A DNA stretch of 64,000 nucleotides from Candidatus Kaiserbacteria bacterium. Its GTDB lineage: Bacteria > Patescibacteriota > Minisyncoccia > Phycocordibacterales > Phycocordibacteraceae. Shown here piece by piece: positions 14,138-62,324 of this stretch. The notes beneath the pieces are model-generated. The model was given only the letters and a program-made list of their open reading frames with translations. It was not told where the DNA came from and made no database searches. The stretch is from NCBI GenBank assembly GCA_016217905.1, contig JACRFL010000013.1, positions 3,184-67,183 of the forward strand, given 5' to 3'. Within the stretch, counting starts at the first letter, position 1; every line of letters starts with the position of its first letter. Position numbers and translations under genes: made by a program.

Positions 14138-16135
14138 TTATTCGGCCGGGGTCGCCTCCGTCGGAGCGCTCTCGACAACTGCCGGAGCGCTCTCCGCCAC
14201 CACTGCCGCCGGCTCCGCTGGAGCGACTGCGGGCTCGGGGATGGCTGGCTCGACCGGCGTTTCCACGGCCGCTTCCGGCTCCGGAGAGAGAATGTCCTCT
14301 TCACGTGTGACGGCCGGCTCGACCGCCGCCGGCTGATCGGGAGCGGCCGTCTCCGCGGGAGCGGTCTCTTGAGACGTTCCCTCTGTCGAGATAGTCGTTT
14401 CAGACGCCACGATCTCGGTCTCCTCGGACGCACCTTCCTCGACCGGCAGCGGCGCCACGACGTTCTCCGGCCCGATGAAGAGGGGGAACGGATCATAGAT
14501 TCGGCCGCTCACGCTGCCAGAATTGAGCATCGGATTTTCCGGACCGATGGCGACGAGATGGATCCAGATGTAGCCGAGGAATCCGGACGGCACCGTCCAG
14601 GTAAACGCGCCGTCGTTTCCAGTAGTTTCGACTATCGTGTGCGTCGTGTCACCCAGACTTATTTTTCCGTCGTGGTTTACGTCCTTCACGTAGTAGATGC
14701 CGATGTCGAGGTCGCCGTCGGGGCCGTTGTTATTCGTCGCCGTCCACTTGATCTCGTAACTGTGCGTCCAGTACCACGTGTACGAGCCTCCCTCGTCCGG
14801 GTAGACGAGATCGATCGAAGGCGGCACGAGTTCTTTCCAATCGGAGGGCGCGTCGGTGTCGTAACCGGAAGGTACTCGAGCAAGGACGTTGCCCTCGGCG
14901 ACATTTGCCGCCCCGGGATCCCAGACGTTCGGATTGTAATTCGTCCATCCGGTGTCGGGGGTGCCCCAGTTCATCTGGTCGACGATAATCCTGTCGGGAC
15001 GTTTGAGGACAAGCATGTCGGCGTCGTTATCCAAACCGCCCCCGATTTTCGAATGTATGTTGATTTCGGTCACCTCGCTCGGCAGATACCAGTACGCGGG
15101 CAGGCCGCTCGAAACGGTCGTTGAGGTGGCGGTGGTTGACGTGGCAACGATGACCGCATATTTCTGCGCGGGAATGAGGAGTGTCGTCGGCAGGGTGTCA
15201 CACGAGGTGTTGTCGCAAATCTGCCATCCGGAAATATCCAAAGGCACGTTTGTCTGATTGTAGATCTCCACCCATTCGTTCGTACCCTCCGCACCGCGCT
15301 CCGGCGTTTTCACGTTGTAGTAGATCTTGTTGATCCGGAATCCCCACGAAGCGAGATGGTTTTTTACTTTTTCCGTATCGTTAAATCCGCCACCCTCGTA
15401 GCTCGGGTAGTCGTGCCGCGTTTGCCAGCCGTTGTAATCGATGTCGAAGTCGCAGGTGCGGTTTTGGAGATTGCTGGTCCCCGCCGTGTAGGCGAATTCC
15501 CACGGGTCGAGCGCGGTTGTCGTGGCGGTGAGGAGCCCCGTAAGAGGACCGTGATACATCTGGGTGCCCCCGCGCGTCGCGGTAACGTCAAGCCCCGAGC
15601 AGAAATCGGCATCGCCGGTAAAGTTGGTCGAGGTGGCGAAGTATTGAAACGGATTGCTCGCTTGCGGGTCGATCGCAACCGTCTTTTTCGTAACATCTCC
15701 GGGCGGCATCGACACGGCCGTACTCGTCGCCTGCCAGCCGGAAGTTGTCAGCGAGAAATCGACCGAACCCGCCCGGAAGGCATTCTCGGTCGAGCTCTCG
15801 ATATCGTTGTAGTATCCCCTTGTACTGCCGAGGCCGGTGATGCCGACGCTGTTAAGGCCGATCATGAGCGTGACGGCGAGCGCTTTAAGCGACAGCCGCG
15901 GCGTCGCCCTTATAAAAAACGGAGAGAGGACGCTCTTGCGCCTGTTCGCCCGCGCCGCGCGCGGCGCGCACGCGGCGCGCGGGCGCAGATCGAGCACATG
16001 CGCAGACGACGCGACGCGACGCGCCTTCCTCCTGGCGACCCTTCTCACCGGCACGGAAACACGCGCAGCGACAGTCGCTTTTTCTTTTTTCCGGGGAGTC
16101 TTCTTTATCGCTCCCGTTTTAATATGTACCGCCAT
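14138..16135 (-). CDS. Lamin-tail-domain (LTD) protein with SipW-cognate-like signal region and Pro/Glu/Ala-rich C-terminal tail (start uncertain: 16135 or internal MIGLNS)
   Basis: N-terminal K/R-rich segment then TM (LKALAVTLMIGLNSVGITGLG). This is followed by GYYNDIESSTENAFRAGSVDFSLT, resembling the TasA/camelysin SipW-cognate motif. LTD signature GTNEWVEIYNQTNVPLDISGWQI ... IPAQKYAVIVA. C-terminal low-complexity PEPEAAVETPVEPAIPEPAVAPAEPAAV. Confidence 0.65.
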   Translation of the reverse strand: MAVHIKTGAIKKTPRKKEKATVAARVSVPVRRVARRKARRVASSAHVLDLRPRAACAPRAARANRRKSVLSPFFIRATPRLSLKALAVTLMIGLNSVGITGLGSTRGYYNDIESSTENAFRAGSVDFSLTTSGWQATSTAVSMPPGDVTKKTVAIDPQASNPFQYFATSTNFTGDADFCSGLDVTATRGGTQMYHGPLTGLLTATTTALDPWEFAYTAGTSNLQNRTCDFDIDYNGWQTRHDYPSYEGGGFNDTEKVKNHLASWGFRINKIYYNVKTPERGAEGTNEWVEIYNQTNVPLDISGWQICDNTSCDTLPTTLLIPAQKYAVIVATSTTATSTTVSSGLPAYWYLPSEVTEINIHSKIGGGLDNDADMLVLKRPDRIIVDQMNWGTPDTGWTNYNPNVWDPGAANVAEGNVLARVPSGYDTDAPSDWKELVPPSIDLVYPDEGGSYTWYWTHSYEIKWTATNNNGPDGDLDIGIYYVKDVNHDGKISLGDTTHTIVETTGNDGAFTWTVPSGFLGYIWIHLVAIGPENPMLNSGSVSGRIYDPFPLFIGPENVVAPLPVEEGASEETEIVASETTISTEGTSQETAPAETAAPDQPAAVEPAVTREEDILSPEPEAAVETPVEPAIPEPAVAPAEPAAVVAESAPAVVESAPTEATPAE

Positions 16136-16798: not shown

Positions 16799-18127
16799 TT
16801 ATTCAGGAGTGTAGGGCGGACGACTCGCAATACTCGTGCACCTGAAGCCAGAGTTGCTCCTTGTTTGCTCTGCGTACGCCGTCAAAGACGCCGAGAATGA
16901 ATCCGACTGCGCAATGTTACCCATTCCAGAACCGTTGCAGCCGAATGCGCTGCCTGGAGTAGCGGTGAGCGTTCCTGCACACCATACAAGACCGATATTC
17001 TTGGTAGTGGTGGCGGTGAGGAATTGACCATTGCTGGGATCCATACTCATGATGCTGGTGAGCGATGAGAGCGGTCCGACGCCGCCGAGAGGAGTCTCGC
17101 CCACGTCATAGAGACCATTCCCGTTGGTATCTCCCCAGGTGAATACATTGAGGAAGTTGGATAACTCGCCTTTTCCAGTTGGATTACCAACCCCGTTCGC
17201 GTCACCCGCTGCTATTTCAGGAGCGAGTGGTTGTGCCGGGTTCTCTTGGTCATCTTTGTCGCCCACGATAAGGCATGAGTAGGCATCGTTGCTCGACACA
17301 TGAAGCGATATTTCATTTGTACCCCAGTCAGCCGGCTTTACATCTCCAAAGTTGAAGAATGTATCTCCTTGGCCAAGGTCCTTTTCCGTCCAAAGCCGGC
17401 AGACCTGCTGGAAGGCAGAATCTGCTTTACACTGCGCCGGATCACGATGAATATTCAGCTTGAAGAGAAGTCCAGCCGGATTCCCTGAAGAGCCTCCGCC
17501 GGCAGACATGTTACGAACAACTATGTCAAGCGTGTTCTGTCCGTTCACCATCGCTCCCATGAAGGCGGCCTCTTGAGCGCCAGTCAAGGAAACAGCCGGA
17601 TTATAGTTGAACTCGAGAGGGAGCTTATCGACAATAGTTGTTCCGTTGAGGATAATCTTGTACCCGTTGTCAGCCGCGAGAGCGAGATCTAAGTTCACGC
17701 TCACGACAGAGCCGTTCCACTGGAACTTGTTCTCGAATGTGTACTCTGCGTTATTGGTCGTATCGTTCAACGTTGTCGGATCAGTCGCCCAGATCCACTG
17801 CGCCGGAGCGAGAGCGGCTTCGCTCTGCCAGGCCGGATGTGGGCTGCTCACGTCAACAGCCGGAATGGGGAAAGGACCCTGATTTGAGGCTCCCGCGCTT
17901 GCTGCCACGACCTTTGTTGCTGTAGAGCTGTACACATTCACACTGCACGTCTCACAGTCTACGCCATTGTAGGTCTGCTTCGTGTGATCCACCTTGAGGT
18001 CAATGGAACCCGCGGTGAAGATGTTGCCCGTCGAGGTCTCGGTGTCAGCGTAGAACGCGATGGTCCCGCCGACCGCGAGAGCCGCGACGACCGCTATCGT
18101 CCCAGCGCTAAGAAGAATTTTATTCAT
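16799..18127 (-). CDS. TasA/camelysin (CalY)-family protein with SipW-cognate class signal peptide
   Basis: N-terminus MNKILLSAGTIAVVAALAVGGTIAFYADTETSTGNIFTAGSIDLKVD matches the TIGR04088-type SipW-cognate signal (GT.A.F.D.E.S.GN.FTAG..DL). Confidence 0.8.
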   Translation of the reverse strand: MNKILLSAGTIAVVAALAVGGTIAFYADTETSTGNIFTAGSIDLKVDHTKQTYNGVDCETCSVNVYSSTATKVVAASAGASNQGPFPIPAVDVSSPHPAWQSEAALAPAQWIWATDPTTLNDTTNNAEYTFENKFQWNGSVVSVNLDLALAADNGYKIILNGTTIVDKLPLEFNYNPAVSLTGAQEAAFMGAMVNGQNTLDIVVRNMSAGGGSSGNPAGLLFKLNIHRDPAQCKADSAFQQVCRLWTEKDLGQGDTFFNFGDVKPADWGTNEISLHVSSNDAYSCLIVGDKDDQENPAQPLAPEIAAGDANGVGNPTGKGELSNFLNVFTWGDTNGNGLYDVGETPLGGVGPLSSLTSIMSMDPSNGQFLTATTTKNIGLVWCAGTLTATPGSAFGCNGSGMGNIAQSDSFSASLTAYAEQTRSNSGFRCTSIASRPPYTPE

Positions 18128-18148
18128 GTTCTTTTGTTAGGCTGGTGA

Positions 18149-18973
18149 CTATGCCGACCTCGGTGAACAAAGGAATCCTGGATTGTTTCGAGATTGCACT
18201 GCACGGAAGCTCACATCAGCAGTCAAACTGTCGGTCTGCGTGATGTTGTTTACCTGGGAACCATTGCAGACGATACCTCCAGTTGAATTGGCCGGGGTTC
18301 TTGGGCTGGTCGTACCCATCCCATCCTGCTCAAGAGGAGCTGCCGAAATAGCGCCAAAACACCACGCCTTACCGATGAAGCGCTCTGAACCGCCCGGCAA
18401 TGGACCTCCTTCATCCGTCCAGATGTTCGTTTGAGAGTCAGCGAGGGCAACCGACGATGTCGCTGAGGCCGAGGCAAGCGTTCCCGAAGGGAGCGGCGTT
18501 TCGTTGTTCTCTAGAACATTGTCTCCGTCGTCAGCCCACCACATGAAGTTTACTGCCTGTGCCAATTCTCCGTTACCGGCACCATCTGATACATCACCAT
18601 CCTGCCTTTCCGGTTCCGTAATACCGTTATCATCGTTACTCGTCAGCTTTACGTCAGCACAAACGTAGGCATCGTTGTTGTTTACGTGGAGACTGATAGT
18701 GTCCTCCCCTCGATCGCCTGGCTTAAGATCAAGAAAATTAAAGAATTTCTCAATCGTCAAATCCTTTAATTCCCAAGTCGTGTCTTGATTCAGAACACCG
18801 TTATAATAACTTTCGTTATCAACCTTCAGATCAATCGCGCCGGCGGTGAAGGTGTTGCCGGTTGATGTCTCCGTGTCCGAGAAGAACGCCCCTGTCGCGC
18901 CTAAAGTGGCCGCAACGACGAACACAATCACTCCCAGACTCAAGAGAATCCTTTTGTTAAGAAGTGCTGTCAT
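18149..18973 (-). CDS. TasA/camelysin (CalY)-family protein with SipW-cognate class signal peptide (start at MTALLNKR, 18973)
   Basis: MTALLNKRILLSLGVIVFVVAATLGATGAFFSDTETSTGNTFTAGAIDLKVD. The same conserved signal block as the neighbouring paralog. The tracker start 19060 adds an Arg-rich extension that was rejected. Confidence 0.78.
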   Translation of the reverse strand: MTALLNKRILLSLGVIVFVVAATLGATGAFFSDTETSTGNTFTAGAIDLKVDNESYYNGVLNQDTTWELKDLTIEKFFNFLDLKPGDRGEDTISLHVNNNDAYVCADVKLTSNDDNGITEPERQDGDVSDGAGNGELAQAVNFMWWADDGDNVLENNETPLPSGTLASASATSSVALADSQTNIWTDEGGPLPGGSERFIGKAWCFGAISAAPLEQDGMGTTSPRTPANSTGGIVCNGSQVNNITQTDSLTADVSFRAVQSRNNPGFLCSPRSA

Positions 18974-19092
18974 AACGTATTCTTTGTTTACGCACCTTCT
19001 AAATAGGTGTCTGCAAACACGAATAGAGCGCGTTCGCACCCGCAGACGCCCCGTCTGCAACTGCCATAAGTAGATACCTCCCTAAGATCAAA

Positions 19093-48243: not shown

Positions 48244-51063
48244 TTAGGCGCCGAGGATCGCGAGCGCACGAGTAAGCGCGAGCTTCGCGCCCGTCACGCC
48301 CGTCGAGTAGCTGGAGTCGATAGCGGTTGTGAGGGAGGCAACGAGCTTCTCCAGAACCGGCGTCGAAAATCGGGCGGTCAAGCGTACGATTCCGGCATCG
48401 CAGGTAGTGCCGTCAATACGCGCGCGATACGCGTCGTCGATGAGGCAGACGATGCTTGAGAGAAGCTGCTCCGGCGCACCGGCACCCTGCACATGCCCCC
48501 GCAACCCAGCGAAGACCGCGGCACGGTCGCCCTCAAGCAGCGCGGCGGCAAAATCGCGAACGGATGCGGGTGCTGCAACTGCCGTCGCCGCCTCGCCGGT
48601 ATCGGCGGCAATCGGTTCGACGTTTTCATACACCGGCTCAACCCTTTCATATATCGGCTCTACTCGCGGCGCCGGTTCCCCTTTTTCTTCGACAGTTCGC
48701 GGAAGATGGTGCCGCGAAAGGCTCTTCACGATGTCATCAATCGAGAGCGCGCCGTCGTGCGCAAAAGACTTGAATCCGTGGTACGGCGAATACCCGCGCG
48801 GCGTCGCGGGCTCTGGCACAGGGAGAAGAGATTCGTTTTTCTCCGGAGGTTTCGGGTGCGGCGGAGCTACGGAAACGGCCCGCGTGGAAAGCGCAGTCGA
48901 AACGCGGGAAACGAAGCTGCGAATCGAGCGGTTCGCGAACGGCACCGCGCCGAAGAGCACGAGATACGCAAGCGCGAGCGCCCATCCGACAAGGGCGATC
49001 CAATACAGTACCGTGCCGACGGGTCCGAGCTCAAGGCCGGTGTACGGAATTTGAGAAAGATAGAGATACGCGAGCGGTTGCGCGTTCACGTGCGGAAGCG
49101 CCGCAAGCGTGATGGTCGGCGGAGGCGGGCCTCCTCCGCCACCACCGCCACCACCGCAGTTGCTGGTGCATCCGCCTCCGCCTCCGCCAGTCACAGAGAG
49201 CGCCGCGGTACAGGTGAGCGTCTGGCCGGTATTCGCCGTGAATACACCGGTGTACGTGTAGCTGCCTACGGCCGTCGGCGACACACTTGTCGAACTCGGT
49301 ATCGTCGTCGTCGCGCCGACACCGTTGTCTATAGACACGCTTTGTATTCCCGAGCCGCCCCACGAGAGCGTCGCCGAACTGCCAGAAACAATGCTGGTCG
49401 GACTGACGGCGAGAACGCACGACGGACCTCCGCCGCCGCCTCCGCCTGTGTTAACCGAGACCGTCGCGGTACAAGTCGCGGTTCCACCCGTCGGACTCAC
49501 CACTGTGCCGGTAAAGATAGTGTCCGCATTGATCGCGAGAGACATTATCGAACCGCCCACTGCGGGACTCACCGAGCCGATGCCCTGATTAATACTGAAA
49601 GTGTCGGCATTTGTGGCCGTCCACGTAAGCGATGCGCGATCGCCTCTATTCACTTTCACCGGAGAGGCGAGAAGCGTGCAGGTGGGTGCGGACGGAGGGG
49701 GTGGGGGTGGGGGTTTCGTCGTGACCGTCACCGTCGCCGCGCAAGTTGCCGAGCCGCCCGCGCCGGTGGCGGTGCCGGTGTACGTGGTGGTAAGGGTCGG
49801 CGAGACCGACTTCGAGCCGGACGCGACCGGCGCCACGGAGCCGATAGTGTGATTAATCGAGAACGATGCCGCATTCGCGGTCGTCCAAGAAAGTGTCGAA
49901 GGCGAGCCGGTCTGAATAGTCGTCGGCGATGCGACAAGGGTGCAGGTGGGAGCGGGAGGTGGGGGTGGGAGATGCGGGTATGTGCAGGTGATACCGGCCT
50001 GGCTCGTCGCAGCCGGGTTGTAGTTGGTGGCGGAGGGGTCCATACAGCCGTAAACGGGAGGGGGCGGGGGCGGTGTTGGGGTGACCGTAACGGTTGTCGA
50101 GCACGTTACAGAACCGCCCGCGCCGGTGGCGGTGCCGGTGTACGTGGTGGTAAGGGTCGGCGAGACCGACTTCGAGCCGGACGCGACCGGCGCCACGGAG
50201 CCGATAGTGTGGTCGATGGAAAATGCCGCAGCACTCGTCGTCGTCCATGAAAGCGTTAAAGAGGAGCCGACTTGGACGGTCGAAGGCGACGCCGAGAGTG
50301 CACAGGCAGGAGTGACAAGGGGCGGAGGAGCGCAACCCGGATCAGTCCCTATGTATTTATAGTTTCGCGGAGTCGAATCATCGTAGGCCCAGATCTGCCA
50401 GTTATTCCCGTTTAGATCATTACCGCCAGTACAGTAATTGGTCCAGATGGGCTCGACGACAACGGGAGCGACACATCCGTTCGCAATCGTTCCGTTTTCT
50501 ACAAACAGGTAGTTCGTCGGGGTGGAATTATCGTATGCCCATATTTGCCATGGGTGCAAAACGTCATTCGCTCCCGTACAGTAATTAGTCCACACGGGGG
50601 GCGGGGACGAGACTGCGATCTCAGCCGTACAGGTACCCTCCCCGCCCGGGCCCGAGACAGTCATCGTGTAGTTCGTCGTCGCTGTGACGGAGATTGTTCG
50701 AGAGCCGGAGTCAGCGGGCGAAACCGCTCCTACACCGTTGTCGATAGCTGCGCCCGTGGCCGTAGTCGTTGTCCACGAGAGCGTCGAGGAGCCGCCGCCG
50801 AAGGCGAGCGAAGCCGGGTTCGCGGAGAGCGCGCAGGTGGGTGCGGGCGGCCCGTCTAGACCGCCGCCGCCGCCGTCACCAGCGCCGCCTCCTCCCCCGC
50901 CCCCATCTCCGCCGCCACCTCCTCCACCGCCCCCATCTCCCTCGGCAAGCGCATGGAGAACGCCGAACGGAGACAACTCACCGTAGTGCTGCAGCACAAA
51001 GCCGCGCGAGAGCGCGAGTAGCATAAAAAGCAGTATCAGGGTGATCGAATATCGGAAAGGCAT
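48244..51063 (-). CDS. Giant cell-surface protein with tandem Ig-like repeats, poly-Gly/Pro linkers, a C-proximal IPYTG + TM + basic segment and a roughly 200-aa cytoplasmic tail
   Basis: Signal peptide MPFRYSITLILLFMLLALS. At least five repeats of about 75-90 aa (P.C.L.ASP..V..G...TLSWTT ... Y.GT.TG.GG. ..C). Two repeats share about 100 nt of identical DNA (49750-49850 vs 50110-50210). Sorting-signal-like SQIPYTGLELGPVG[TM]NRSIRS. Confidence 0.65.
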   Translation of the reverse strand: MPFRYSITLILLFMLLALSRGFVLQHYGELSPFGVLHALAEGDGGGGGGGGGDGGGGGGGAGDGGGGGLDGPPAPTCALSANPASLAFGGGSSTLSWTTTTATGAAIDNGVGAVSPADSGSRTISVTATTNYTMTVSGPGGEGTCTAEIAVSSPPPVWTNYCTGANDVLHPWQIWAYDNSTPTNYLFVENGTIANGCVAPVVVEPIWTNYCTGGNDLNGNNWQIWAYDDSTPRNYKYIGTDPGCAPPPLVTPACALSASPSTVQVGSSLTLSWTTTSAAAFSIDHTIGSVAPVASGSKSVSPTLTTTYTGTATGAGGSVTCSTTVTVTPTPPPPPPVYGCMDPSATNYNPAATSQAGITCTYPHLPPPPPAPTCTLVASPTTIQTGSPSTLSWTTANAASFSINHTIGSVAPVASGSKSVSPTLTTTYTGTATGAGGSATCAATVTVTTKPPPPPPPSAPTCTLLASPVKVNRGDRASLTWTATNADTFSINQGIGSVSPAVGGSIMSLAINADTIFTGTVVSPTGGTATCTATVSVNTGGGGGGGPSCVLAVSPTSIVSGSSATLSWGGSGIQSVSIDNGVGATTTIPSSTSVSPTAVGSYTYTGVFTANTGQTLTCTAALSVTGGGGGGCTSNCGGGGGGGGGPPPPTITLAALPHVNAQPLAYLYLSQIPYTGLELGPVGTVLYWIALVGWALALAYLVLFGAVPFANRSIRSFVSRVSTALSTRAVSVAPPHPKPPEKNESLLPVPEPATPRGYSPYHGFKSFAHDGALSIDDIVKSLSRHHLPRTVEEKGEPAPRVEPIYERVEPVYENVEPIAADTGEAATAVAAPASVRDFAAALLEGDRAAVFAGLRGHVQGAGAPEQLLSSIVCLIDDAYRARIDGTTCDAGIVRLTARFSTPVLEKLVASLTTAIDSSYSTGVTGAKLALTRALAILGA

Positions 51064-51163: not shown

Positions 51164-52261
51164 TTATTCGATCCAGTGCTCGTTCATGATGCAATCCGGG
51201 ACCGGATTGCTGTCCCACTCGCCGAGCGTAGTGCCCGGCAAACGGTTGAAGAACCGGAGCTCGTGGAGCCCCGTTTGGTGATATCGAGGCGGCGATACGA
51301 CATCATCGTTTATCGATACAACCCGGATTGCATCCCAAGTCTCGAGCTGAGCTCGTGAAAACTGAAGCTCGTGGAGCCCCGTTATCGGGACATCGCCAAG
51401 GACGTGCTCCTCGGTTACCGCAGGCGCTTCGCCGCGAACCTCCGGTGTCATGATGAACGACACACGGAAGACCCTGGTGGTCGCACTGCGCGCGATTTCT
51501 CCGGCAGCGTAGGCCTTGCGGAACTGCCCGCCGTGCATCCGCGAGACATGCGATGCTCCGACGAATTTTTCTTCGAGCTCTTCTTTTGCCGCCGTGCGCT
51601 CGACCCCAGGAAGGTTGAATGCTTTGCGTTCCCAAACGTTCACCTTCAGGGTGTACACGTCCGGGCACGCCCCGAGTGGCTTGAGAACGGCAGGCACTAC
51701 CGGTTGTTCCGGAGAAGCCGTTGCCACCCAGCTGACGTTGAAGCACACGAATGGGAGGTACAGAACGTAAACCTTCCCTTCGTGCGCAAACGTCCACGAG
51801 AACGCCTTCGCCGCTTCGGCGACCGCGCCCTTGCGGTACGACCGGCCGTCGGGCGATTTGAGAACCGGCAATTCCCCCACCGTGACGTTGTTCATCACGT
51901 GCGGTTTGGGGCCGCCGCTCCACATCTGCTCGAGCCGCTGGTGCGGCGTAAGCCACACCTCGGTGCCGCCTTTGCAGGTGGCGCCGAGAGCGGCCTTGAA
52001 ATGCTCCTTGACCGGCGGCGGCATGTTAAAGCCGTCGATGGACTCAATAAGCACTTTCGCGCATGCTTCCTCTTTCGAAGAAGCAAACGGTGCGATGTTC
52101 CACCTGTCCCATTTCACTCCGGCCTCGGCTGCTCGCACCTCCGGGATGACCATTGTCGGAATGAATATGAGCAGCAAAAACGCTGCGAACAGGAGAAGCA
52201 CCTTGAAGGCGATTTCCCGCACTTTGATTTTCATAGCACTTCTCCTGCCTGTGCCGCGCAA
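51164..52261 (-). CDS. Secreted/membrane-anchored hypothetical protein
   Basis: N-terminal hydrophobic signal-anchor (AFKVLLLFAAFLLLIFIPTMVIP). No recognisable family. C-terminal NRLPGTT motif without a following TM. Confidence 0.5.
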   Translation of the reverse strand: MRGTGRRSAMKIKVREIAFKVLLLFAAFLLLIFIPTMVIPEVRAAEAGVKWDRWNIAPFASSKEEACAKVLIESIDGFNMPPPVKEHFKAALGATCKGGTEVWLTPHQRLEQMWSGGPKPHVMNNVTVGELPVLKSPDGRSYRKGAVAEAAKAFSWTFAHEGKVYVLYLPFVCFNVSWVATASPEQPVVPAVLKPLGACPDVYTLKVNVWERKAFNLPGVERTAAKEELEEKFVGASHVSRMHGGQFRKAYAAGEIARSATTRVFRVSFIMTPEVRGEAPAVTEEHVLGDVPITGLHELQFSRAQLETWDAIRVVSINDDVVSPPRYHQTGLHELRFFNRLPGTTLGEWDSNPVPDCIMNEHWIE

Positions 52262-52298: not shown

Positions 52299-52344
52299 GA
52301 GAGCCACGCGATTTCCGGCGTTAGCCGGAAATCGCGTGGCTCTC
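52299..52344. repeat. 21-bp perfect inverted repeat straddling the sortase stop codon (GAGAGCCACGCGATTTCCGGC gtta GCCGGAAATCGCGTGGCTCTC)
   Basis: Seen directly. The right arm encodes the last seven sortase residues (ESHAISG). No T-tract follows. Confidence 0.7.
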
Positions 52345-52998
52345 AACAAAGTCTGCGGTGACAACGAACCGGTCCGTTTTCTTCCCGAAGGAGTCGCAGG
52401 TCACAAGCGTAAGCACCTTCCCCCCTGTAGAAAGCGGAATGGCCGTGTTATCGTTCGCGCTTTCTTTCGCGACGCTTTGCACCCGGTACGTATACGCCGC
52501 GCCCGAAGCGTACACGATAATCGCGTCTCCGGCAACGAGCTTCTGGATGCCGTTGAAGGTCTTGTACGCTTGATTCTTGACGACCGGCAGGTAGCTCGAG
52601 TGCCCGAAGAGAACGACATTGCCCGTCTCTCCGAGCAGGGCCGATGTCGGGTAGCGCACCGCTCCCGACAGGAGCTCTCGGTCAAGCGCATCGATTGCGG
52701 TCGTTGTCGGGTTCACGACTGCCGCCGAAAGGCCGATGGCGGAAATTTCTATCTTCGTCGGCAATTCAGAAACGACCGGTGACGCCTGCGTTCTCCGCTC
52801 CGATGTCGCGCGCGAGACGGCCGGAGACGCGGAAACGGCACCGGTCGCACGCGCTTCCGGCAAAAGATCGAGCCTGCCGAGCACGGCGATGCTTCCGAGA
52901 AACAGTGCGGCGAAAAAACAAAGAAAGCTCCACTTCCGCGCGTACGCGCGCTCCGCGGCTTCGACAAGCCCCACGATAAAATCAATAAACTTCTGCAT
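52321..52998 (-). CDS. Sortase-family transpeptidase (membrane-anchored)
   Basis: N-terminal TM. Catalytic His (VVLFGHSSY), TLxTC cysteine motif (LTLVTCDSFG), conserved Arg (RFVVTADF). Confidence 0.7.
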   Translation of the reverse strand: MQKFIDFIVGLVEAAERAYARKWSFLCFFAALFLGSIAVLGRLDLLPEARATGAVSASPAVSRATSERRTQASPVVSELPTKIEISAIGLSAAVVNPTTTAIDALDRELLSGAVRYPTSALLGETGNVVLFGHSSYLPVVKNQAYKTFNGIQKLVAGDAIIVYASGAAYTYRVQSVAKESANDNTAIPLSTGGKVLTLVTCDSFGKKTDRFVVTADFVESHAISG

Positions 52999-53061: not shown

Positions 53062-53844
53062 ATGTTATGTATAACGCATCCTATGGACACACCGGACACC
53101 CATATGTCAGCCCGCCAGACGGCCACAAACGTCCTTGCGGTCGTCGGCTTCATCGCGATTATCGGCGCGAGCCTCTGGCTCGCCGCGTACTCGACGCGTT
53201 TCGTCCCCTCGGTGGCGGGGCGCATCGGCAGCGCGGCCGTGTACCTCGGCTCGATCTTCTCCTCTTCCGAGGAACCCGCTCTCTCGGTTGTCTCGACGCC
53301 AGCCGCGTCCTCGACAATCACTTTTGGTGAGGCGGTTTTAACCACGACTGATGAAATAACGCTTCCCGTAACGCCCCCAAAAGCGCCCGCCCCGACCCCG
53401 GGCGCAAAGACGAGCAACGTGTACTCGCTCGGCAGTGCAACGACGACCGCCCCCGCCGTGCAAGGGGGACTTCCTGATCTCATCGTAAACATCGATGCGA
53501 TCGGCTACCTCGCCACAACCTCGGCGGAATCCTTCATCGCCAGCTCGACCGTCCCCGTTCACAACCGCCCGGCGGTCGCGTTTACTATCAAAAACGTCGG
53601 TACGGGCGCGACCGGAACGTGGCGCTGGAGCGCATCCATCCCGACGCAAACTGCATATATATACCAGTCGCAGCCGCAGCAGTCGCTGAATCCAGGCGAC
53701 CGTATCGACTATACACTCGGCTTCGACCAGGCGAATAAGGGCGCTCAGACCATCTCCATTACCGCAAACTTCGACCGCGCTGTCGTCGAGTCGAACTCGA
53801 ACAATAACAGCGCTTCCGTAAACGTAACTATTCTCGGTTCCTAA
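53062..53844 (+). CDS. Secreted/membrane-anchored CARDB-domain protein (alternative start 53104)
   Basis: TM anchor. C-terminal CARDB-like beta-sandwich (DLIVNIDAIGY ... FTIKNVGTGATG ... ESNSNNNSASVNV). Confidence 0.55.
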   Translation: MLCITHPMDTPDTHMSARQTATNVLAVVGFIAIIGASLWLAAYSTRFVPSVAGRIGSAAVYLGSIFSSSEEPALSVVSTPAASSTITFGEAVLTTTDEITLPVTPPKAPAPTPGAKTSNVYSLGSATTTAPAVQGGLPDLIVNIDAIGYLATTSAESFIASSTVPVHNRPAVAFTIKNVGTGATGTWRWSASIPTQTAYIYQSQPQQSLNPGDRIDYTLGFDQANKGAQTISITANFDRAVVESNSNNNSASVNVTILGS

Positions 53845-60611: not shown

Positions 60612-62324
60612 TCACGAATTCGAAATGTCTCGTATCTCTTTTGTAACCACTTCTTCTGCCTCTTCAAGTTTTTGCTCAAATTGTTCCAAAAATTCCGCTT
60701 CTTCGTCTGTCAGTTTTCTATTGACTTTCTTGAGCCGAGCCACATGTTTTTGAACGCCATCGCGAAGGACCTTAAACGCTCGTTCGGATGTTTTCTCCGC
60801 CTCCCGTGCTTCACGTCGCATACGCGATATGGTGCGGGGAATCCTAAACCAGAGGCGAGCTCCGATCCAAACAAGAGCGCCGAGTGCGAGCAATATTAGG
60901 ATTGCGACAGAAAGATATTTCAAAGTGAAACCAATAAGACCTGTCACAAACTCCGATCGAACGGTAATCGTAAGTGGGGATGTTTCTGCACTCTGTGCTC
61001 CTCGATCATCTTTCACGTGGAGGATTATGGTGTACACGCCGGGGTCAAGCCGTTTGGTGGCCACAAGCGCAAAGTCGCCCAAAGAGTTGCTTCGGGTAAA
61101 TTCCTCCGACATCAGTGAGTTACCTTCGCGGATGGAGACGATTACATCGGAATCGGGATAGGTCGTTCCCCTGACTTTCAGAATATCTCCCTCTTCTATC
61201 GCCTCCGGATAGTGGGTAATGACCGGAGCGTCGATGCCTTCAATCGTAAACTCTGCCGATCCGCTGCGAATGTTGCCGGCGTTGTCTATGGCCGATACAA
61301 AAAGAGTATAGGCACCGGGAATCTGTGACGGGAGAACATACGGATTGGATTCCGCAAGGGGAGCTGTCTTGACCGGCTTCGTATCACTTCCTATTTTGAT
61401 TTCGTAGTGACTTATCCCCGATTCGTTGTCTGTCGTGTTGAAGAAAACGACCGGCTGGGGTTCCAGCCCCTTGTTTCCGTGCGGGAAGGAGATAGAGAAT
61501 GGTTTCGGCGGAGTGGTATCAATATTCACGCGGTACCGCGAGACTGCGCTCCAGCCGGCAGAGGTGCGCGCTTGGAGCGAGAAGTAATAGGTACCATCCG
61601 GAAGCTCATCAATTTTCTTTTTTGAGATAGGCGGAATGTAGGAAACCGACGGATTGCCTACGGGAGATTTTCCAATGAGCGTGCGGACTTCAAGTGTACC
61701 CTCCGGCAACTTCCACGAAAATTCTGGCGTATTGTCTGCATACCATTTCCCCTGGTCCGGATGCGTGGCAGAGGTGATGCCGAGTGTGTTCCCGGTCGCG
61801 ACCGGGGGCGTTTCCGTTTGAGGCGCAAGAGGAGGCCTCTCTCCCGCGGCGGTGAGCGTAAAGACCGCCATCCGAAGCCCGTTTAAGATATTCATCCCTG
61901 TGCCATCGTTTGCCAGAACAGAGCCAGAGGAAAAGCTTAGATTCGCTTGCCCGGCACTCCGCGCGCGGAAGGTAATAGTAAGGATTTTCCCAGAGGCACC
62001 CGTATAGCCGGGGTTAAGCACGATACCTTCAAAAGAAACAGTGCCTTGGCTGTTCGAAAAAGACGGCTCCGCAGGCCAGAGAGAGAAAATTGACCCCTGT
62101 TTGGAAATAGAGACGACTTCAAACTTGTCCCACGGAAAAGACACGACGCCGGAAGCGGCATTCATCGCCTGATCGGAGCTCTCTACATTCACGTTTACAG
62201 AAAAGGTGCTGCCGACACTGTACGAACCAGACGGCGGCGAAAAATTGAGAGATGCCGCCTGCGCCGAAAACGGCGCAAGTACGAACAGTGCGAACACGAA
62301 CGTTATTTTATAAATCGTATCCAT
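60612..62324 (-). CDS. Surface protein with N-terminal cohesin-like domain, Ig-like region, C-proximal TM and cytoplasmic coiled-coil tail
   Basis: Signal peptide MDTIYKITFVFALFVLAPFSAQA. Cohesin-like beta-sandwich (ASLNFSPPSGSYSVGSTFSVNVNV ... KILTITFRARSAGQANLSF). TM TGLIGFTLKYLSVAILILLALGALVWIG. Charged tail. Confidence 0.55.
   Translation of the reverse strand: MDTIYKITFVFALFVLAPFSAQAASLNFSPPSGSYSVGSTFSVNVNVESSDQAMNAASGVVSFPWDKFEVVSISKQGSIFSLWPAEPSFSNSQGTVSFEGIVLNPGYTGASGKILTITFRARSAGQANLSFSSGSVLANDGTGMNILNGLRMAVFTLTAAGERPPLAPQTETPPVATGNTLGITSATHPDQGKWYADNTPEFSWKLPEGTLEVRTLIGKSPVGNPSVSYIPPISKKKIDELPDGTYYFSLQARTSAGWSAVSRYRVNIDTTPPKPFSISFPHGNKGLEPQPVVFFNTTDNESGISHYEIKIGSDTKPVKTAPLAESNPYVLPSQIPGAYTLFVSAIDNAGNIRSGSAEFTIEGIDAPVITHYPEAIEEGDILKVRGTTYPDSDVIVSIREGNSLMSEEFTRSNSLGDFALVATKRLDPGVYTIILHVKDDRGAQSAETSPLTITVRSEFVTGLIGFTLKYLSVAILILLALGALVWIGARLWFRIPRTISRMRREAREAEKTSERAFKVLRDGVQKHVARLKKVNRKLTDEEAEFLEQFEQKLEEAEEVVTKEIRDISNS

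What the first reader, a model, noticed from the sequence alone, without database searches (positions are those of the whole stretch)
48244..51063. Giant repeat surface protein with an IPYTG-TM-basic sorting-signal-like segment next to a sortase, plus very recent intragenic repeat homogenisation
The protein has at least five Ig-like repeats separated by poly-Pro/Gly linkers. Two repeats share about 100 nt of 100% identical DNA (49750-49850 vs 50110-50210), indicating recent duplication or gene conversion. Near the C-terminus SQIPYTG is followed by a TM helix and NRSIRS, resembling an LPxTG-type cell-wall sorting signal. Yet an unexpected roughly 200-aa cytoplasmic domain follows. A sortase gene (52321-52998) lies 1.2 kb upstream with one hypothetical secreted protein between them, and a CARDB protein follows divergently. 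This may be a non-canonical sortase substrate or surface-display system in an organism whose cell-wall architecture is unknown.
Basis: partly seen in the sequence, partly recalled or inferred. Interest (0 to 1): 0.6.

Follow-up and report, generated by a model that had tools for sequence, protein, structure and literature searches.

The report
Sortase-linked surface protein with cytoplasmic tail
A tiny uncultured (CPR/Paceibacterota) bacterium encodes a repeat-rich surface protein whose sortase-type anchoring signal is followed by a large, highly conserved intracellular domain; it always sits beside its own sortase gene, which suggests an unusual two-part surface-display system.

Summary
Gene 48244-51063 (-) encodes a 939-aa protein with a signal peptide, Gly/Pro linkers and five Ig-like repeats (AF2 pLDDT 96). 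Two of the repeats share a 98-nt exact tract. After SQIPYTG come a TM helix, NRSIRS and a 222-aa cytoplasmic tail. The neighbour at 52321-52998 is a real sortase (Pfam E=5.5e-23).

Comparative data add to this. The anchor module is 50-70% identical in about 80 Paceibacterota species. The ectodomain ranges from 0 to 11 Ig repeats. Across 77 orthologues P, T and G of the pentapeptide are invariant and X varies (Y/Q/F/H), the LPXTG-type pattern.

Of about 50 loci with enough upstream DNA, all but one (L069, the variant described next) have a sortase upstream on the same strand. This includes five rearranged cassettes and three far more divergent relatives. A natural variant lacks the ectodomain, the motif and the neighbouring sortase, but keeps the tail. 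One relative carries LSQIPYTG in a classical C-terminal layout.

Best reading (0.55): a dedicated sortase substrate whose membrane and cytoplasmic remnant has its own function. Cleavage is inferred, not shown. No Pfam or NCBIfam model, and no paper among those searched, describes it. I rate it a new variant of a known kind.

The parts
48244..51063 (-). Gene for the 939-aa IPYTG surface protein: signal peptide, ectodomain, sorting-signal-like segment, cytoplasmic tail
   Evidence: ORF. Orthologues in about 80 species. No Pfam or NCBIfam hit.
50944..51063 (-). N-terminal signal peptide or signal anchor (aa 1-~40, MPFRYSITLILLFMLLALSRGF...HALA)
   Evidence: Read from the sequence. The same N-terminus occurs in orthologue L047. 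Not run through a predictor.
50857..50940 (-). Gly-rich linker (aa 42-69)
   Evidence: TRF period 15/30.
50605..50847 (-). Ig-like repeat 1 (aa 73-153, Cys77-Cys145)
50329..50598 (-). Two ~45-aa Cys-bracketed 'WTNYCTG...WQIWAYD' modules (aa 156-245)
   Evidence: Direct repeat D5; sequence. No family match.
50077..50316 (-). Ig-like repeat 2 (aa 250-329)
49975..50055 (-). 'GCMDPSATNYNP...C' short Cys-bracketed module (aa 337-363)
   Evidence: Recurs 0-6 times in orthologues and inside the 354-nt tandem unit of L002.
49717..49956 (-). Ig-like repeat 3 (aa 370-449), the repeat modelled by AF2
   Evidence: pLDDT 96.4, 7-strand sandwich. Ig-fold matches.
49447..49692 (-). Ig-like repeat 4 (aa 458-539)
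49186..49431 (-). Ig-like repeat 5 (aa 545-626)
49754..49851 (.). 98-nt tract identical to 50114-50211 (gene-conversion tract, copy in repeat 3)
50114..50211 (.). 98-nt tract identical to 49754-49851 (copy in repeat 2)
48913..49080 (-). Conserved sorting-signal-like segment, aa 662-717: QPLAYLYLSQ-IPYTG-LELGP, TM helix, NRSIRSF
   Evidence: Per-column counts over 77 orthologues. TM helix in the AF2 model.
49036..49050 (-). Pentapeptide IPYTG (aa 672-676), the putative sortase cleavage site between T675 and G676
   Evidence: Cleavage is inferred.
48247..48912 (-). Cytoplasmic tail (aa 718-939): GFKSFA..GALSIDDIVKSLS segment, EPxYE repeats, helical domain
   Evidence: Conserved at 50-70% identity. 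Tail length is 232-303 aa in the orthologues.
48610..48663 (-). VEPIYERVEPVYENVEPI short repeats in the disordered cytoplasmic linker (aa 801-818)
   Evidence: Alignment A1. Low pLDDT.
48247..48567 (-). C-terminal six-helix cytoplasmic domain (aa 833-939)
   Evidence: pLDDT 85-95. Weak fold match to clamp-loader domain III. Homologous in divergent relatives.
51164..52261 (-). Middle gene: 365-aa secreted or membrane-anchored hypothetical protein; this cassette slot is variable
   Evidence: No family. Detected in about half of the loci. Not similar to the L001 occupant (E=4.1).
52321..52998 (-). Sortase (225 aa, N-terminal TM; GHS His, TLVTC Cys, DRF Arg)
   Evidence: PF04203 E=5.5e-23. Below every class cut-off in NCBIfam. 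Motifs conserved in 51 orthologues. PDB sortase hits.
53062..53844 (+). CARDB-domain membrane protein, the fourth conserved member of the cassette
   Evidence: PF07705 E=9e-7. Adjacent to the cassette in nearly all loci, on either side.

Best explanation
The protein is the dedicated substrate of the adjacent sortase.

Proposed mechanism:
1. It is exported through Sec.
2. The TM helix and the basic NRSxRxF stretch hold it in the membrane, with IPxTG just outside.
3. The sortase (Cys in TLVTC) cleaves between Thr675 and Gly676.
4. The variable ectodomain of Ig-like repeats is transferred to the cell wall. The acceptor has not been determined.

Unlike classical substrates, the leftover is not a disposable peptide of about 30 aa. 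It is a conserved module of about 260 aa (GLDLGP, TM helix, 222-aa cytoplasmic tail) that stays in the membrane. This module probably has its own role, for example positioning or organising display from the inside, or reporting that processing has occurred.

The ectodomain evolves quickly by repeat gain, loss and gene conversion, as expected for a host- or partner-contact adhesin.

Shown: the architecture, the conservation pattern and the synteny. Inferred: cleavage, the acceptor and the tail's function.
For: - The sortase is genuine. Its His/Cys/Arg motifs are conserved in 51 orthologues.
- The motif behaves like LPXTG. Over 77 orthologues the counts are I73/L2/T2, P77, Y68/Q7/F1/H1, T77, G77, followed by a TM helix and basic residues.
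- Of about 50 loci with at least ~4.5 kb upstream, all but one (L069) have the sortase upstream on the same strand.
- In five loci with different flanks (L002, L008, L029, L056, L067) the sortase, target and CARDB genes still travel together.
- Three relatives share the PYTG motif but have diverged or extended tails. All three have the sortase upstream, in one case with a 2-nt gap.
- Natural loss experiment: L069 and P0118 have no ectodomain, a decayed motif (SPVATLGL) and no sortase within 8 kb, but the tail is intact.
- P0260 carries YLSQIPYTG, a TM segment and YKIK, then a stop and a terminator. That is the classical layout.
- The ectodomain is hypervariable (0-11 Ig repeats) while the tail is constant.
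- There is a precedent for functional sorting-signal remnants: the C-peptide sensed by SGO_1180 in S. gordonii, as discussed in PMC11326707.
Against: - No known sortase substrate has a folded cytoplasmic domain of 230-340 aa after the basic residues. The defining 'C-terminal' feature of a sorting signal is not met.
- The flanks (QPLAYLYLSQ, GLDLGP) and the TM helix are far more conserved than in ordinary sorting signals. This could reflect a structural or partner-binding role without cleavage.
- Much of the synteny is one ancestral locus (gyrB, CARDB, sortase, target, thrS, dnaE), so the roughly 50 loci are not independent observations.
- No LPXTG-anchor HMM hit was found.
- The sortase reaches no class cut-off.
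- The classical-layout relative is a single clean example.
- There is no biochemical or proteomic evidence.
Confidence: 0.55

Rival explanations
1. The protein is an uncleaved type I membrane adhesin or receptor. The IPxTG-containing juxtamembrane segment is a structural or partner-binding element. The protein works as one piece, with the ectodomain sensing or binding outside and the conserved tail acting inside. The neighbouring sortase serves other substrates and is adjacent only through inherited gene order.
For: - The cytoplasmic tail, the TM helix and the motif flanks are under strong constraint, which is unusual for a disposable signal.
- The whole gyrB-to-dnaE neighbourhood is conserved, so the adjacency could be inertia.
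- No LPXTG-anchor model hit.
Against: - The position-specific pattern (P, T, G invariant; X free) is what sortase recognition predicts.
- The cassette stays together when it moves to other flanks.
- The motif and the sortase are lost together with the ectodomain in L069 and P0118.
- No other candidate substrate lies in the window or in about 1 Mb of related loci.
Confidence: 0.27
2. The sortase acts at IPxTG but joins the ectodomain to a protein acceptor instead of peptidoglycan. The acceptor could be another copy (a pilus-like polymer), the CARDB protein or the product of the variable middle gene. The result would be a covalent surface fibre or complex.
For: - The sortase's best PDB sequence match is a class C (pilus) sortase, 8t28, E=4.9e-7.
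- The cassette always includes the CARDB membrane protein and usually a secreted middle protein.
- The ectodomain is built of Ig-like domains, as in pilins.
Against: - Only one gene in the cassette carries a PxTG signal.
- The window protein has no pilin-type Pfam domain (SpaA, CnaB) and no recognisable pilin-motif Lys.
- The class C NCBIfam score is 38 against a cut-off of 160.
- The middle gene is replaced by unrelated genes in different species.
Confidence: 0.12
3. The feature is an annotation or assembly artefact: two genes (a surface protein with a normal sorting signal and a separate cytoplasmic protein) are fused by a sequencing error, or the repeat identity comes from mis-assembly.
For: - Metagenome assemblies often break in this gene. 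Thirty of 80 loci end inside the ectodomain region and L047 has a scaffold gap.
- Public gene calls are often truncated.
Against: - The continuous reading frame from the motif through the tail is found in 77 independent orthologues, with tails of 232-303 aa.
- The truncated 'short' homologues are gene-caller artefacts of longer ORFs.
- Recent repeat turnover is also seen independently in L002: a 354-nt unit in 2.6 copies at 100% identity.
Confidence: 0.03

Closest known systems
Classical LPXTG cell-wall sorting signal substrates of housekeeping sortases (e.g. S. aureus protein A with SrtA; S. agalactiae beta antigen with LPYTG)
   Same: Signal peptide, repeat-rich ectodomain, [L/I]PxTG pentapeptide, hydrophobic helix and basic residues in the same order. 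The P/T/G-invariant, X-variable pattern also matches. LPYTG is itself a known motif variant (PMC4457541, listed).
   Different: The protein continues for 222 aa (232-339 aa in relatives) as a conserved cytoplasmic domain instead of ending. The motif flanks and TM helix are strongly conserved. There is no LPXTG-anchor HMM hit. There is one substrate per sortase, encoded side by side.
Dedicated sortase-target gene pairs (e.g. the proteobacterial 'marine'/class GN sortase TIGR03784 with its single adjacent target). The pairing is recalled from my own knowledge of the NCBIfam descriptions.
   Same: One sortase gene is kept next to one target gene across many genomes.
   Different: The sortase scores 19 bits against TIGR03784 (cut-off 158). 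The target is unrelated, and those targets end with a normal C-terminal signal.
Class C sortase pilus islands of Gram-positive bacteria
   Same: A sortase is encoded next to Ig-fold surface-protein genes. The best PDB sequence match is a class C sortase.
   Different: There is a single PxTG gene, no pilin motif or E-box, no SpaA/CnaB domains, and the class C model scores far below its cut-off.
Sorting-signal remnant ('C-pep') signalling in Streptococcus gordonii (SGO_1180 two-component system)
   Same: The idea that what sortase leaves in the membrane is functional and not waste (PMC11326707).
   Different: There the remnant is the ordinary peptide of about 30 aa, sensed by a separate kinase. 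Here the remnant would itself carry a folded, conserved domain of about 220 aa.
Clamp-loader gamma/delta' domain III helical bundle (fold only)
   Same: The C-terminal helical domain superposes over about 112 columns at rmsd ~2.7 A, Foldseek E=3e-3.
   Different: Only 14% identity and no sequence-profile hit in the PDB. This is probably a generic helical-bundle resemblance. It suggests oligomerisation at most.

Membership tests
Sortase (PF04203 / TIGR01076) | Significant match to the sortase domain model above the curated cut-off | tested here: met
   PF04203 81.5 bits against a cut-off of 26.6. TIGR01076 40.3 against 39.35.
Sortase (PF04203 / TIGR01076) | Catalytic His, TLxTC Cys and Arg present and conserved | tested here: met
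   LFGHSSY, TLVTC and DRFVV in the window. Each is conserved in at least 95% of 51 orthologues and aligns to PDB sortases.
Sortase classes A-F | Score above the class-specific NCBIfam cut-off | tested here: not met
   The best is class E at 51 bits against a cut-off of 160. Class D scores 39-42, class C 38 and class F 27. The class is unassigned.
LPXTG-type cell-wall sorting signal substrate | N-terminal signal peptide | tested here: inconclusive
   An n-region Arg plus a hydrophobic h-region is visible and is conserved in L047. No signal-peptide predictor was available.
LPXTG-type cell-wall sorting signal substrate | [LIV]PxTG pentapeptide conserved at P, T and G and free at x | tested here: met
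   P77, T77 and G77 of 77. x = Y68/Q7/F1/H1.
LPXTG-type cell-wall sorting signal substrate | Hydrophobic membrane segment followed by basic residues directly after the motif | tested here: met
   AF2 helix over aa 681-728. NR[RS]xRxF is conserved.
LPXTG-type cell-wall sorting signal substrate | The signal is C-terminal: the protein ends within a few residues of the basic tail | tested here: not met
   222 more residues in the window. Tails after the motif are 232-303 aa in 79 loci and reach 339 aa in the divergent relative L087. Only the distant relative P0260 ends classically.
LPXTG-type cell-wall sorting signal substrate | Match to the LPXTG anchor HMM (TIGR01167) | tested here: not met
   No NCBIfam family at E<=0.1 for the 939-aa protein.
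LPXTG-type cell-wall sorting signal substrate | Cleavage between T and G and amide linkage to peptidoglycan | not testable with these tools
   Needs biochemistry or proteomics.
Sortase-assembled pilin | Pilin-motif Lys or E-box, SpaA/CnaB domains, and several PxTG pilin genes in the cluster | tested here: not met
   The window protein has no such Pfam domains. Only one PxTG gene lies in the cassette.
Ig-like beta-sandwich repeat | Seven-strand sandwich fold matching Ig-fold structures | tested here: met
   AF2 pLDDT 96.4. Foldseek matches SoxY, Dscam and titin at TM 0.6-0.78. Sequence-level matches to Pfam Ig or PKD families are only marginal.
CARDB (PF07705), neighbour gene | Pfam match above the cut-off | tested here: met
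   29.5 bits against 22.7.

The most novel reading that the evidence does not exclude
Sortase cleavage here may not be simple anchoring. It may be a maturation step that splits one polypeptide into two functional products: a wall-linked, fast-evolving adhesin, and a conserved membrane-tethered cytoplasmic module that organises or signals from the inside. Possible roles for the module include marking the attachment site, oligomerising through its helical bundle, or reporting display status. This would be a new class of bipartite sortase substrate. It would also be a core, single-locus cell-surface system of Paceibacterota, and possibly the host-contact apparatus of these epibionts.
Probability: 0.3. 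Interest if true: 0.8.

Novelty: new variant of a known kind. Interest (0 to 1): 0.6.

Why it matters
How CPR/Patescibacteria cells build their surface and attach to partners is largely unknown. Sortases are known to be enriched in CPR (PMC6744442), but I found no paper describing their substrates.

This locus provides a concrete, conserved sortase-substrate pair:
- a defined recognition motif (IPxTG);
- an ectodomain that diversifies by repeat turnover, as adhesins do;
- a conserved intracellular domain attached to the sorting signal, which is unprecedented.

If the sortase does cleave it, the rule that sorting signals are short, disposable and C-terminal needs a documented exception. The remnant would then become a candidate organiser or signal. 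The motif and the enzyme could also be tested directly in vitro, without cultivating the organism.

Tried and rejected
- Short homologues. Many homologues of 270-300 aa seemed to lack an ectodomain, which would have argued against a sorting function. Reading the DNA showed they are truncated gene calls of longer ORFs. L047's short form is a scaffold gap.
- Fold search against afdb50 was unavailable.
- Function of the helical tail domain. There is only a weak Foldseek resemblance to clamp-loader domain III. No PDB sequence-profile hit was found. A profile search with alignment A3 returned only fragments of the same family. Pfam and NCBIfam found nothing for the tail.
- Literature searches for PYTG/IPYTG motifs in CPR, for sortase in Patescibacteria or Kaiserbacteria, and for sorting signals with cytoplasmic domains found nothing relevant.
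- A search for more classical-layout PYTG proteins, using the P0260 tail as query, found no candidates. That class rests on one clean example. P0208 and P0254 end soon after the motif but lack a convincing TM segment.
- The promoter and terminator scan of the cassette was uninformative.
- Covariation between sortase residues and the X residue. One loop column is T in the five IPQTG loci and A in most IPYTG loci. The five may be one clade, so this is a lead only.
- The pilus reading and the assembly-artefact reading were considered and ranked low (see rival explanations).
Full report
**Context.** The window is a housekeeping region of a high-GC CPR genome (Kaiserbacteria-like Paceibacterota). 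It carries rpoB, rpoC, dnaG, rpoD, smc, RNase R, dnaE, thrS, gyrB and pheT. The closest homologues of the target are all from Kaiserbacteria, Paceibacterota or Minisyncoccia MAGs.

**Observation check.** The ORF 48244..51063 (-) encodes 939 aa. Its parts, in order:
- a hydrophobic N-terminal signal;
- a Gly-rich linker;
- five ~80-aa repeats, each bracketed by a Cys pair (aa 73-153, 250-329, 370-449, 458-539, 545-626), 33-78% identical to each other;
- two 'WTNYC' modules and one 'GCMDPSATNYNP' module;
- poly-Pro and poly-Gly linkers;
- QPLAYLYLSQIPYTGLELGP, a TM helix and NRSIRSF;
- 222 further residues.

An AF2 model of repeat 3, built on a 17-sequence repeat alignment, is a confident seven-strand sandwich (pLDDT 96.4). 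Its best PDB matches are Ig-fold domains such as SoxY, Dscam and titin. Sequence-level Pfam matches are only marginal.

The claimed identical DNA is real. Nucleotides 49754-49851 equal 50114-50211 (98 nt). The rest of the 272-nt repeat pair is 65% identical. That sharp boundary is the footprint of gene conversion, not of a single old duplication. An orthologue (L002) has a 354-nt unit in 2.6 copies at 100% identity, so rapid repeat turnover is typical of this gene.

The neighbour at 52321-52998 is a sortase (PF04203, E=5.5e-23). The neighbour at 53062-53844 is a CARDB protein.

**What the gene family looks like.** The last ~290 aa (motif, TM helix, tail) retrieved 240 proteins at 50-70% identity (alignment A1). 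A scan of one genome per species found the module in 80 genomes.

Many database entries are short, at 270-300 aa. This looked like evidence against a sorting function. The DNA shows they are truncated gene calls. In L001 the real ORF is 482 aa. In L002 it is about 800 aa with the same Ig and NYN modules. The L047 'short form' is a scaffold gap. Thirty of 80 contigs end inside the ectodomain region, as expected for repeats.

Among 57 orthologues that are complete at the 5' end, the ectodomain ranges from 46 to 1226 aa and carries 0-11 Ig repeats. The tail after the motif stays within 232-339 aa. The family therefore combines a conserved anchor and tail with a hypervariable exterior.

**Is IPYTG a sortase motif?** Five lines of comparative evidence bear on this.

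1. Per-position counts over 77 distinct orthologues are I73/L2/T2, P77, Y68/Q7/F1/H1, T77, G77. Invariant P, T and G with a free fourth... more exactly a free third position is the signature of LPXTG-type recognition. The motif is followed by a TM helix and NR[RS]xRxF.
2. Of about 50 loci with enough upstream sequence, all but one have the sortase upstream on the same strand, and the CARDB gene is adjacent. The exception is L069. Much of this reflects one ancestral locus (gyrB, CARDB, sortase, target, thrS, dnaE). However, in five loci with different flanks the sortase, target and CARDB genes are still together in a rearranged order.
3. Three far more divergent relatives carry LSQVPYTG, LTRVPYTG or LTDVPYTG and have tails that include an extra 'EDGW' domain. 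All three have a sortase immediately upstream, and in one case the gap is 2 nt.
4. A natural variant (L069; P0118 in L085 and L086) joins an N-terminal TM segment to the anchor module with no ectodomain. In it the motif has decayed to SPVATLGL and no sortase lies within 8 kb, yet the cytoplasmic tail is intact. Motif, ectodomain and sortase are thus lost together, and the tail is retained independently.
5. One relative, P0260, has YLSQIPYTG followed by 26 hydrophobic residues, KIK, a stop codon and a strong terminator. That is a textbook sorting signal with the same motif.

No other xPxTG + TM candidate exists in the window or in about 1 Mb of related loci. This fits a dedicated pair.

**The sortase.** It has an N-terminal TM segment and the His (LFGHSSY), Cys (TLVTC) and Arg (DRFVV) motifs, which are conserved in 51 orthologues. 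It aligns to class C, A and D structures at E~1e-6. It reaches no class-specific cut-off; the best is class E at 51 bits against 160. It is therefore a sortase of unassigned class.

**The tail.** AF2 predicts three regions:
- a long TM helix;
- a disordered stretch containing the conserved GFKSFA..GALSIDDIVKSLS segment and the VEPIYE(N/R)VEP repeats;
- a confident six-helix C-terminal domain (aa 833-939).

The helical domain is homologous in the divergent relatives, with invariant D..YR..R and D..Y....K positions. It resembles clamp-loader domain III only weakly (E=3e-3, 14% identity). No Pfam, NCBIfam or PDB sequence match exists. Its function is unknown. An oligomerisation or scaffold role is a guess based on the fold.

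**Mechanism.** The most likely reading (0.55) is that this is the dedicated substrate of the adjacent sortase. After Sec export the protein is held by the TM helix and the basic stretch. It is cleaved at T675|G676, and the ectodomain is transferred to the wall or to another acceptor. The remnant of about 260 aa stays in the membrane with a function of its own.

A functional remnant has a precedent in S. gordonii, where the leftover C-peptide is sensed by a two-component kinase (PMC11326707). The main rival (0.27) is an uncleaved type I membrane adhesin whose juxtamembrane motif is structural. The unusually strong conservation of the flanks, the TM helix and the tail supports that view. The loss pattern in L069 and the co-mobility of the cassette argue against it. 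A pilus-like or protein-acceptor variant (0.12) and an assembly artefact (0.03) rank lower.

**Comparison with known systems.** The protein works like an LPXTG substrate. It fails one defining feature, because the signal is not C-terminal, and it has no anchor-HMM hit. It should not be filed as a canonical member.

Literature searches found no description of PYTG motifs or sortase substrates in CPR. It is known only that sortases are enriched in CPR (PMC6744442). I rate it a new variant of a known kind, with interest 0.6.

**Limits.** All of the evidence is computational. The synteny observations are partly non-independent. The classical-layout relative is a single example. Whole genomes could not be scanned for other substrates.

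Noticed in passing
window 48610-48663 (aa 801-818): The disordered cytoplasmic linker carries tandem short motifs VEPIYERVEPVYENVEPI, conserved as EP[IV]YENVEPI in orthologues. They look like tyrosine-based linear motifs (EPIYA-like, or YxN). No partner is known.
   Followed up: no
L069 4823-5908; L085 8001-8960; L086 2382-3341: Variant gene: an N-terminal TM segment resembling the N-terminus of the CARDB-gene product is fused to the anchor module. It has no ectodomain, a decayed motif and no nearby sortase; it lies next to tgt and ddl. How this fusion arose was not worked out.
   Followed up: partly
window 51164-52261 and the equivalent slot in L001, L002, L047: The gene between sortase and target is a secreted, Cys/Trp-rich protein that differs between species. 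The window and L001 occupants are not detectably similar (E=4.1). Some relatives have no middle gene at all (L087, L089).
   Followed up: partly
window 49975-50055; L002 4613-5549; P0024, P0060: A short Cys-bracketed module, 'GCMDxxATNYNxxATSQxGxTCTYP', recurs 0-6 times in orthologues, often alternating with the Ig repeats. It has no Pfam family.
   Followed up: no
window 50329-50598: Two ~45-aa 'PIWTNYCTGxND...WQIWAYDxSTPxNY...GC' modules with no detectable family.
   Followed up: no
sortase, window about aa 182 (loop before TLVTC): One alignment column is T in all five IPQTG-type loci and A in 35 of the IPYTG-type loci. This may reflect specificity covariation or simply shared ancestry.
   Followed up: partly
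public gene calls in L001 5789-5902 and L002 4656-5756: Gene callers place spurious minus-strand ORFs inside the Ig-repeat region and truncate the real gene. As a result many database 'proteins' of this family are only C-terminal halves.
   Followed up: yes
window 14138-16135 (-), 60612-62324 (-), 16799-19060 (-): Other likely surface proteins lie in the window: an LTD-domain protein, a cohesin/Big_13 protein and two camelysin (M73/TasA-like) proteins. None has a PxTG + TM signal.
   Followed up: partly
P0185, P0225, P0226, P0125, P0253, P0223, P0201: Divergent PYTG-TM proteins carry another conserved cytoplasmic domain, 'HAH..VLLS.DA....YP.EDGW[IV].[IL]N.ER', with or without the C-terminal helical domain. 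It has no Pfam match.
   Followed up: partly
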